Shown in pieces: positions 24,380 through 24,845 of a DNA stretch of 64,000 nucleotides (its first letter is position 1; every line of letters starts with the position of its first letter). Both the position numbers and the translations under genes were made by a program. The notes below the pieces were generated by a model that did no database searches, was not told the DNA's origin, and worked only from the letters and a program-made list of their open reading frames with translations. Source of the stretch: Escherichia coli O157:H7 (GTDB lineage Bacteria > Pseudomonadota > Gammaproteobacteria > Enterobacterales > Enterobacteriaceae); assembly GCF_013167455.1 (NCBI RefSeq), contig NZ_CP038328.1, one strand, 5' to 3'.

Positions 24380-24625
24380 TTACATCATCATGTCGCTGTC
24401 CGGTGTGGGGTCACCGCTATCTGAAGCACTCCCCTCACCCGCGATGCCTTCCGGCTCCGGAGCTGCCGGTGCGCCCAGCAGCTCATCCAGAATGGCATCA
24501 ACCTCTGCATCAAGACGCGCTTCCAGGTTATGGCGAAGTTTCTGTTTCAGTGCGCTCCGGACTTCTTCAGAGCGCAGGACTTCCTTCACTGCTTCAGCAG
24601 TGACCAGGGATGTAATTTCTGACAT
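24380..24625 (-). CDS. Hypothetical acidic protein upstream of holin
   Basis: Internal Met [23 protein letters not shown]... of ORF 24380..24799; no known motif. Confidence 0.35.
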
Positions 24626-24674
24626 GGGATTTTCTCGTCGAAAGGTGTGATTAAGAAAGTTGCCGCTAAATGAG

Positions 24675-24845
24675 CGGCTCTTCGGGTTTGCTTCCGGCTG
24701 ACTGACTGGCGCTGATTTTCTCAGCGGCCCTTTTGTCAATCTGTCTGCGCCAGAAGTCACGCATGGCCCGGTATCCACCCGAAAGGAGATACAGCACACA
24801 GACCACCGTACAGAAGTACAGCATTAACTGGTTCAGAAATGTCAT
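24675..24845 (-). CDS. Possible small membrane protein (about 56 aa; ends approximate)
   Basis: Unlisted short ORF MTFLNQLMLYFCTVVCVLYLLSGGYRAMRDFWRRQIDKRAAEK... with RBS GGAAAG and one hydrophobic helix. Confidence 0.3.

What the first reader, a model, noticed from the sequence alone, without database searches (positions are those of the whole stretch)
24380..24845. Two small genes between nanS and the holin
An 81-aa acidic protein and a possible 56-aa single-helix membrane protein directly precede the pinholin. Small membrane proteins next to holins can be antiholins or lysis regulators.
Basis: inference. Interest (0 to 1): 0.25.

Follow-up and report, generated by a model that had tools for sequence, protein, structure and literature searches.

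The report
Two small conserved genes beside pinholin
The two small genes are real, conserved prophage genes of unknown function (Pfam DUF1378, a tiny membrane protein, and DUF826, an acidic soluble protein); in other phages DUF1378 relatives are repeatedly the last gene of the cell-lysis cassette, which suggests, without proving, a non-essential helper role in lysis.

Summary
Observation confirmed with one correction. On the minus strand, between nanS-p (26928..24982) and an S21-type pinholin (24302..24087), lie a 59-aa (not 56-aa) single-TM protein (24845..24666, Pfam DUF1378, 134 bits) and an 81-aa acidic protein (24625..24380, DUF826, 136.6 bits).

Both are catalogued, RefSeq-annotated families with no known function. 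They occur in about 300 phage records and 1015 of 5426 complete E. coli genomes, and are under purifying selection (dN/dS about 0.2).

Comparative result: in Klebsiella, Kosakonia, Pantoea and related prophages, DUF1378 relatives are the terminal cistron of holin–endolysin–spanin cassettes. Their ATG overlaps the i-spanin stop (ATGA) in 42 of 46 loci, across several holin, endolysin and spanin families.

Against an essential or antiholin role:
- Phages 434, H-19B, YYZ-2008 and 2B8 lack both genes at this slot; PasA/PasC sRNA genes are reported there instead.
- S has its own dual start.
- The nanS–DUF1378–DUF826 block also sits far from lysis genes in Mu-like prophages.

Best reading (confidence about 0.45): a dispensable accessory of the membrane step of lysis, with DUF826 as a possible cytoplasmic partner. 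There is no homology to releasin or RIII, and both AF2 pair models were uninformative. Interest is modest.

The parts
24666..24845 (-). DUF1378 gene: 59-aa single-pass membrane protein, predicted N-out/C-in, with a conserved LYF...LYL..GG(Y/W)..IR motif
   Evidence: ORF. Pfam PF07125 134 bits, E 2e-39. phrog_494, unknown function. Alignments. dN/dS 0.18. Hydropathy and charge.
24380..24625 (-). DUF826 gene: 81-aa acidic protein with a conserved helical N-domain (residues 1-51) and a variable acidic, proline-rich tail ending MMM or MML
   Evidence: ORF. Pfam PF05696 136.6 bits. Alignment. N-terminal 47 aa about 98-100% conserved while the tail varies. dN/dS 0.20 versus 0.57. pI 4.2.
24331..24370 (-). 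Intrinsic-terminator-like hairpin (13 bp stem) plus T-tract between the DUF826 stop and S
   Evidence: Scan. Fold -35.7 kcal/mol, z -3.05. A stem plus T-run is kept, with different stem sequences, in the 20 intergenic variants from 87 loci. An equivalent terminator is annotated before S in phage 434.
24310..24326 (-). Second small hairpin that sequesters part of the Shine-Dalgarno region of S. It resembles the start-choice structures known for lambda and 21 S genes (resemblance recalled from knowledge, not tested).
   Evidence: Folds.
24087..24302 (-). S21-type pinholin, 71 aa, dual start Met1/Met4 (MYQMEKI...)
   Evidence: PF04971 112.8 bits. phrog holin. The Met1 codon lies in the module upstream of the homology breakpoint shared with 434-type phages.
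23549..24082 (-). SAR-type GH24 endolysin (N-terminus MSRKLRYGLSAAVLALIAAGASAP)
   Evidence: PF00959. N-terminal sequence.
22088..22555 (-). Rz i-spanin with embedded Rz1 o-spanin (22150..22335). A P22-type ant gene (22709..23278) is inserted between R and Rz.
   Evidence: PF03245 and P22_AR_N. ORFs.
24982..26928 (-). nanS-p sialate O-acetylesterase, the upstream neighbour that travels with the two small genes
   Evidence: DUF1737+SASA+DUF6645. Invariant nanS-DUF1378-DUF826 order.
24846..24981 (.). nanS-p/DUF1378 spacer. It holds a strong hairpin, with a T-run only on the + strand, and a weak full-length Esr41-like match on the + strand (24905-24982).
   Evidence: Fold z -3.35. Terminator-like site on +. 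Rfam Esr41 29.6 bits, below the gathering score of 102.

Best explanation
The two ORFs are real late-operon genes of a lambdoid, stx-less E. coli prophage. DUF1378 is a 59-aa inner-membrane protein with a very short periplasmic N-terminus, one TM helix and a basic cytoplasmic tail. DUF826 is an 81-aa acidic cytoplasmic protein with a helical core and a disordered acidic tail.

The most likely role is a dispensable accessory of the lysis module. Both genes are read from the Q-antiterminated late transcript together with S, R and Rz/Rz1. DUF1378 then inserts into the same membrane as the pinholin, the tethered SAR endolysin and the i-spanin, and tunes the timing or efficiency of the membrane step. 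DUF826 may act as its soluble partner, possibly through charge interactions with basic cytoplasmic segments: the DUF1378 tail, the S C-terminus or the R N-terminus.

Shown here: gene reality, family membership, purifying selection, conserved gene order, and coupling to spanin genes in relatives.

Inferred: topology, expression as late genes, any effect on lysis, and any DUF1378-DUF826 contact.
For: Family membership and purifying selection.

Recurrent position in lysis cassettes. Among 89 loci recovered with distant DUF1378 members, 46 have the gene directly after the i-spanin, and 42 of these have an ATGA start/stop overlap. These 46 loci represent 14 clusters at 90% identity and 7 at 70%.

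The position recurs across different cassette builds:
- S21-type pinholin + SAR lysozyme + DUF2570-type spanin.
- Lambda-S-type holin + soluble lysozyme (L096).
- Rz-type spanins (L095, L126).
- A PF11860 muramidase cassette (L186).

All 47 viral contigs whose i-spanin is at least 58% identical to that of L104 carry DUF1378 right after it.

In L096 the DUF1378-DUF826 pair sits at the end of a lysis cassette with no nanS gene.

In the window and about 300 phage records the pair directly precedes S.

No sigma-70-like promoter was found next to the genes.

There are precedents for extra small N-terminal-TM lysis proteins: the Mu gp25 releasin (PMC9239132) and LambdaSo Lcc6 (bioRxiv 10.1101/2024.01.23.576932).
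Against: - There is no experimental datum.
- The genes are absent from the same slot in 434, H-19B, YYZ-2008 and 2B8. Of these, 434 is a classical plaque-forming phage (general knowledge). They are therefore not required for pinholin lysis.
- 32 of 33 cassettes with more distant i-spanins lack DUF1378 and carry variable cargo there instead, so the position is also a cargo hot spot.
- The nanS-DUF1378-DUF826 block sits next to mom in Mu-like prophages, and nanS-DUF1378 sits after lysC in a P2-like prophage. The genes therefore also move as a block with nanS-p.
- A conserved terminator separates them from S.
- Near-identical DUF1378 proteins pair with two pinholin subfamilies.
- AF2 models of DUF1378+DUF826 and DUF1378+S were low-confidence (pLDDT 55-56, pTM about 0.2).
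- No homology to releasin, RIII or any solved structure.
Confidence: 0.45

Rival explanations
1. Passenger cargo (moron-like block). The two genes are accessory genes that ride with nanS-p in a recombination-prone slot of the late region. Their function is unrelated to lysis, for example a fitness or exclusion function of the lysogen or of the infected cell.
For: The slot between the esterase and S has an alternative, unrelated filler in 434, H-19B, YYZ-2008 and 2B8. PasA/PasC sRNA genes are reported at that position (bioRxiv 10.64898/2026.05.13.724894). The nanS-DUF1378-DUF826 block recurs next to mom in Mu-like prophages and after lysC in a P2-like prophage. A conserved terminator insulates S from upstream transcription. 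The region downstream of spanin genes carries varied cargo in related cassettes.
Against: No promoter-like site lies next to the genes. The ATGA overlap with the i-spanin in 42 of 46 loci is operon-style coupling, unlike the 22-149 nt gaps before cargo genes in DUF1378-less cassettes. There are no hits in the defence-system library. DUF1378 occurs without nanS in most non-E. coli lineages.
Confidence: 0.25
2. Partners of the NanS-p esterase. The small proteins help NanS-p, for example by membrane association, folding or release.
For: In Escherichia/Shigella-type loci DUF1378 always directly follows the esterase gene, in lambdoid, P2-like and Mu-like contexts.
Against: 46 loci in other Enterobacterales have DUF1378 and no esterase. 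L096 has DUF1378+DUF826 without nanS. 434-type phages have the esterase without either gene.
Confidence: 0.1
3. Dedicated antiholin. DUF1378 binds and inhibits the pinholin until triggering.
For: It is a small membrane protein immediately upstream of S. Its family is linked to pinholin cassettes in 36 spanin-adjacent loci.
Against: S carries its own dual-start motif here and in the relatives. DUF1378 also occurs with lambda-S-type and other holins. The same DUF1378 clade pairs with two pinholin subfamilies. The AF2 pair model is uninformative.
Confidence: 0.1
4. Chance ORFs or annotation artefacts.
For: Both are short. The Shine-Dalgarno match before DUF826 is weak. Many databases carry a wrong 132-141-aa N-terminally extended 'DUF826' that overlaps DUF1378.
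Against: Strong profile matches, dN/dS well below 1, and conservation at 30-60% identity across genera with a retained motif.
Confidence: 0.02

Closest known systems
Pfam DUF1378 (PF07125) and DUF826 (PF05696); PHROG 494 and 311
   Same: Full-length matches far above the curated cut-offs. The genes are annotated under these names in RefSeq phage Min27 and in E. coli genomes.
   Different: Nothing differs in sequence. These are families without an assigned function, so membership explains nothing mechanistically.
Phage Mu gp25 'releasin' (DUF2730), PMC9239132
   Same: A small protein with an N-terminal TM helix, predicted N-out/C-in, and a cytoplasmic domain. The gene lies a few genes downstream of a SAR endolysin and spanins, as for DUF1378 relatives.
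   Different: No sequence relationship (hhalign probability 0.2%). The gp25 cytoplasmic domain is anionic, whereas the DUF1378 tail is basic and the acidic part is a separate protein, DUF826. Mu lacks a holin, whereas these cassettes have one. In the window the gene lies upstream of S.
Shewanella prophage LambdaSo Lcc6 (bioRxiv 10.1101/2024.01.23.576932)
   Same: A 65-aa protein with TM residues 5-22 and a cytoplasmic tail, needed at the pinholin step in a pinholin/SAR-endolysin/spanin system. It has the same size and architecture as DUF1378.
   Different: No Shewanella protein was identified among the 41 clusters found by the DUF1378 profile search, though several clusters carry no source name. 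lcc6 lies near int/xis, not in the lysis cassette. Lcc6 is essential, whereas DUF1378 is dispensable in related phages.
Dual-start antiholins (lambda S107, phage 21 S71) and T4 RI/RIII
   Same: Small proteins encoded at or near the holin gene that set lysis timing. RIII is a soluble cytoplasmic protein of 82 aa, similar in size to DUF826.
   Different: The dual-start antiholin is an isoform of S itself and is present here independently (MYQM). DUF826 shows no similarity to RIII (hhalign probability 0.1%). DUF1378 has no periplasmic domain, unlike RI.
PasA/PasC sRNA module of lambdoid prophages (bioRxiv 10.64898/2026.05.13.724894)
   Same: It occupies the same slot between the sialate esterase gene and the S holin.
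   Different: It is non-coding and unrelated in sequence to the window's interval. It is an alternative filler, not a relative.

Membership tests
DUF1378 (PF07125) | Profile match above the gathering score over the full length | tested here: met
   134 bits against a cut-off of 25, residues 1-59 of 59.
DUF1378 (PF07125) | N-terminal hydrophobic helix ending in GG(Y/W), followed by an I/V-R juxtamembrane motif | tested here: met
   Invariant or near-invariant L9, L20, G23, G24, R29 across 21 diverse members. Hydropathy about 1.9 over residues 3-21.
DUF826 (PF05696) | Profile match above the gathering score | tested here: met
   136.6 bits against a cut-off of 25, residues 1-75.
Releasin (Mu gp25, DUF2730) | Sequence membership in DUF2730 | tested here: not met
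   No Pfam hit. hhalign probability 0.2%.
Releasin (Mu gp25, DUF2730) | N-out/C-in single TM helix with a cytoplasmic domain | tested here: inconclusive
   The positive-inside rule predicts this topology. No topology experiment exists, and the tail is basic rather than anionic.
Releasin (Mu gp25, DUF2730) | [quoted passage not shown] | tested here: inconclusive
   Met in 46 relatives' loci. Not met in the window, where the gene lies upstream of S and R.
Releasin (Mu gp25, DUF2730) | Required for release of a SAR endolysin | not testable with these tools
   Needs genetics.
Antiholin (dual-start type) | An N-terminally extended isoform of the holin, or a protein similar to it | tested here: not met
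   DUF1378 and DUF826 match no holin family. S has its own Met1/Met4.
T4 RIII-type cytoplasmic co-antiholin | Sequence similarity to RIII | tested here: not met
   hhalign probability 0.1%.
Lcc6-like lysis factor | Sequence similarity to LambdaSo Lcc6 | not testable with these tools
   The sequence is not held. The architecture is similar.
Holin | Lethal membrane permeabilisation on expression, with at least one TM helix and a charged C-terminus | not testable with these tools
   One TM helix and a charged tail are present. The cassettes already contain recognised holins.
Anti-phage defence systems (PADLOC) | Match to any defence protein model | tested here: not met
   No hit at E up to 1.

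The most novel reading that the evidence does not exclude
DUF1378, with DUF826 where present, would be a previously unrecognised class of accessory lysis factor in Enterobacterales prophages. It would be a membrane-tethered module, functionally analogous to the Mu releasin or LambdaSo Lcc6 but unrelated in sequence and split into an anchor and an acidic soluble part. It would set when pinholin/SAR-endolysin lysis fires, and in Stx phages therefore when toxin and phage are released.
Probability: 0.2. Interest if true: 0.6.

Novelty: new member of a known kind. Interest (0 to 1): 0.33.

Why it matters
The pair sits in about one fifth of complete E. coli genomes, often in several copies. In most Stx-converting phage records it lies directly beside the genes that time lysis and therefore Shiga-toxin release. 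Two recent studies (Mu releasin, LambdaSo Lcc6) show that holin, endolysin and spanin are not always the whole lysis machinery. A conserved, spanin-coupled small membrane protein is therefore a cheap, directly testable candidate for a further component. If it has no lysis phenotype, it is simply widespread prophage cargo of unknown use.

Tried and rejected
- **Literature.** Searches by DUF names and locus tags found only a passing mention in PMC10462455 and no functional work.
- **NCBIfam and PADLOC.** No matches.
- **Solved structures.** PDB sequence search found nothing meaningful.
- **Homology to known lysis regulators.** Mu gp25 and T4 RIII were both rejected.
- **Long-form DUF1378 tail versus DUF826.** I asked whether the C-terminal extension of 80-91-aa DUF1378 proteins is a fused DUF826. 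hhalign gave probability 13.8% over 21 residues, which is inconclusive.
- **Apparent DUF1378-DUF826 fusions.** P0180, P0239 and phrog_8301 look like frameshifts, truncations or wrong upstream starts, not true fusions.
- **AF2 with paired alignments and a Gly-Ser linker.** DUF1378+DUF826 gave pLDDT 54.9 and pTM 0.19. DUF1378+pinholin gave pLDDT 56.1 and pTM 0.23. Neither allows a statement about contacts.
- **Is Lcc6 a DUF1378 member?** The 64-aa candidate P0251/P0267 turned out to be another spanin-coupled cassette member in a metagenomic phage, not a Shewanella lcc locus.
- **My initial assumption that the window is an Stx phage.** This was wrong. The 911-nt stretch 24080-24990 (S, both small genes and their spacers) is 100% identical to a Stx2a phage, but the window has no stx genes.
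- **First dN/dS attempt.** It used loose regular expressions that picked up spurious ORFs, so I discarded it and redid it with HMM-defined CDS.

Full report
**What is there.** The late region of a lambdoid prophage lies on the minus strand of the window. The gene order is:
- a Q-like antiterminator (28291..27629; DUF1133 / Phage_antitermQ);
- nanS-p (26928..24982; DUF1737+SASA+DUF6645);
- a 59-aa ORF (24845..24666) and an 81-aa ORF (24625..24380);
- an S21-type pinholin (24302..24087);
- a SAR-type GH24 endolysin (24082..23549);
- a P22-type ant gene (23278..22709);
- Rz/Rz1 (22555..22088 and 22335..22150);
- the terminase genes.

The membrane protein is 59 aa, not 56. The window has no stx genes, although the 911-nt stretch 24080-24990 (S, both small genes and their spacers) is 100% identical to a Stx2a-converting phage and the 598-nt stretch 24303-24900 is 100% identical to E. 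coli O26 RM10386.

**Identity.**
- The 59-aa protein is a full-length member of Pfam DUF1378 (134 bits).
- The 81-aa protein is a full-length member of DUF826 (136.6 bits).
- PHROGs lists both families as 'unknown function', and NCBIfam has no model for either.
- RefSeq already annotates them under these names in phage Min27 and in E. coli genomes.
- The only paper in the library that names them mentions them in one sentence (PMC10462455).

**Are they real genes?** Yes.
- They occur in 309 and 306 phage records.
- They occur in 1015 of 5426 complete E. coli genomes, with a median of 3 and up to 7 copies.
- With HMM-defined coding sequences from all fetched loci, median pairwise dN/dS is 0.18 for DUF1378. 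It is 0.20 for the DUF826 N-terminal domain and 0.57 for its tail.
- DUF1378 has one strongly hydrophobic helix and a basic tail (+2.8), which predicts an N-out/C-in topology.
- DUF826 has pI 4.2. It has a conserved helical core (invariant [17 protein letters not shown] among E. coli/Shigella-type members; only five positions stay invariant across the wider family) and a variable acidic, proline-rich tail. The tail ends in MMM, MML or TMM in most members.
- The 139-aa GTG ORF (24799..24380) is an in-frame upstream extension of DUF826 that overlaps DUF1378 in another frame. Such 132-141-aa calls are common in databases and explain phrog_8301.

**Distribution.** Both families are narrow.
- A profile search of 1.84 billion representative proteins found only 41 DUF1378 clusters.
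- Where a source names the organism, they are Enterobacterales: Escherichia/Shigella, Klebsiella/Raoultella, Kosakonia, Pantoea, Mangrovibacter, Cedecea and Erwinia.
- DUF826 is essentially confined to Escherichia, Shigella and Citrobacter, plus one metagenomic phage.

**Genomic context, the main result.** In E. coli-type loci the block nanS-p–DUF1378–DUF826–S is invariant, whatever lies upstream (stx, methyltransferase or restriction-modification genes).

I fetched loci with distant DUF1378 members and annotated neighbours with HMMs built in the sandbox and with Pfam/PHROGs. Two contexts emerged.

(i) Spanin-adjacent, 46 loci.
- The order is holin, endolysin, i-spanin (with embedded o-spanin), then DUF1378.
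- The DUF1378 ATG overlaps the spanin stop (ATGA) in 42 of the 46 loci. I read this directly in L104 and L014.
- These loci have no nanS and, except L096/L097, no DUF826.
- They represent 14 sequence clusters at 90% identity and 7 at 70%.
- They span S21-type pinholins of two subfamilies with SAR lysozymes, a lambda-S-type holin with a soluble lysozyme (L096), Rz-type spanins (L095, L126) and a PF11860 muramidase cassette (L186).
- All 47 viral contigs whose i-spanin is at least 58% identical to that of L104 carry DUF1378 immediately after it.
- 32 of 33 contigs with more distant i-spanins lack it. They show varied cargo after 22-149-nt gaps.

(ii) Esterase-adjacent, 34 loci.
- The order is nanS-p, DUF1378 and usually DUF826.
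- This block lies upstream of S in lambdoid prophages.
- In a P2-like prophage it lies after lysC and lacks DUF826 (L101).
- In Mu-like prophages it lies beside mom at the right end, far from lysis genes (L136, L160).

L096 links the two contexts. There DUF1378 and a DUF826 member (56.7 bits) close a lysis cassette that has no esterase.

**Evidence that limits the lysis reading.**
- Phages 434, H-19B, YYZ-2008 and 2B8 have the esterase and the S holin with an unrelated non-coding spacer of about 290-450 bp and neither small gene.
- A 2026 preprint places the PasA/PasC sRNA genes in exactly that position in YYZ-2008 and 2B8. The slot therefore has alternative fillers.
- S has its own dual start here (ATG TAC CAG ATG). 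The 434-type module supplies ATA CAT CAG ATG instead, and the homology breakpoint lies at the S start.
- Dual starts are also present in the relatives' pinholins, so DUF1378 does not replace the antiholin isoform.
- Near-identical DUF1378 proteins occur with two different pinholin subfamilies.
- A 13-bp hairpin plus T-tract lies between DUF826 and S (24331-24370). It folds to -35.7 kcal/mol (z -3.05).
- That stem plus T-run is kept, with different stem sequences, in the 20 intergenic variants from 87 loci. An equivalent terminator is annotated before S in 434.
- This terminator would insulate S from any transcription that is not Q-modified.
- No promoter-like site lies near the small genes.

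**Comparison with known systems.** Architecture and position resemble the Mu releasin gp25. That protein has an N-out/C-in TM helix and a cytoplasmic domain, and its gene lies downstream of a SAR endolysin and spanins (PMC9239132). They also resemble LambdaSo Lcc6, a 65-aa protein with TM residues 5-22 that is essential at the pinholin step.

Homology to gp25 is rejected (hhalign probability 0.2%). Homology of DUF826 to T4 RIII is also rejected (0.1%).

A weak resemblance between the C-terminal extension of long-form DUF1378 and the DUF826 core is inconclusive (probability 13.8%). There are no relatives in the PDB or in PADLOC. AF2 models of linked DUF1378+DUF826 and DUF1378+pinholin, built with paired alignments, were low-confidence (pLDDT 55-56, pTM about 0.2). 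They show only the expected helices.

**Verdict.** Their function is unknown.

The best-supported reading (about 0.45) is that DUF1378 is a dispensable accessory of the lysis module acting in the cytoplasmic membrane, with DUF826 as a possible cytoplasmic partner. The main rival (about 0.25-0.35 including the esterase-partner variant) is that they are cargo travelling with nanS-p. A dedicated antiholin role is unlikely (about 0.1).

The recurrent, translationally coupled position of DUF1378 at the end of diverse lysis cassettes was not found in the papers searched here. It makes a simple deletion experiment worthwhile.

Noticed in passing
window 27076-27330: Between Q and nanS-p, where Stx phages carry stx, the window has an AgvB anti-sRNA gene (27076-27137, + strand, 96.5 bits) abutting an STnc100/PasD-like sRNA (27138-27330, - strand, 149.9 bits). 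tblastn finds no stx genes anywhere in the window.
   Followed up: partly
window 27417-27476 (-): Rfam tRNA match (37.3 bits, model positions 7-64 of 71) that ARAGORN does not call. It is probably a truncated remnant of the tRNA cluster that Stx phages carry upstream of stx.
   Followed up: no
window 24905-24982 (+): A full-length but weak Esr41-like match (29.6 bits, gathering score 102), antisense to the late operon in the nanS-p/DUF1378 spacer. Its terminator hairpin has a T-run only on the + strand. It may be a diverged prophage sRNA gene.
   Followed up: partly
window 24296-24302, compared with L011-L013: The first Met codon of the 71-aa S isoform lies upstream of the recombination breakpoint. 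Modules with DUF1378/DUF826 give ATG TAC CAG ATG (dual start), while 434/H-19B/YYZ-2008 modules give ATA CAT CAG ATG (68-aa form only). Whether the long S isoform exists therefore depends on which upstream module is present.
   Followed up: partly
window 24380-24799 (-): A 139-aa GTG ORF is an artefactual upstream extension of DUF826 that overlaps DUF1378 in another frame. Equivalent 132-141-aa 'DUF826 domain-containing protein' calls are frequent in public annotations and underlie phrog_8301.
   Followed up: yes
window 24380-24388; alignments A1 and A8: DUF826 proteins from distant lineages end in a short hydrophobic motif (MMM, MML, TML, TMM, TTL) after a variable acidic, proline-rich tail. 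It looks like a conserved C-terminal linear motif and is unexplained.
   Followed up: no
L014 2721-2936 (Stenotrophomonas phage vB_SmeS_BUCT709): An S21-type pinholin ORF upstream of the lysozyme is not annotated in the record, which instead has a 78-aa ORF on the opposite strand. The identical 50-aa DUF1378 clade is otherwise named from Klebsiella pneumoniae, and a clade-A DUF1378 occurs in 'Elizabethkingia phage EKP1'. Both host assignments look questionable.
   Followed up: no
L136 and L160 (IMG/VR contigs): The nanS-p–DUF1378–DUF826 block is inserted between the tail-fibre-assembly region and mom in Mu-like prophages. The sialate esterase module is therefore not restricted to lambdoid phages.
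   Followed up: partly
window 22709-23278 (-): A P22-type antirepressor (ant) gene sits between the endolysin R and Rz and splits the lysis cassette, as in phage Min27.
   Followed up: no
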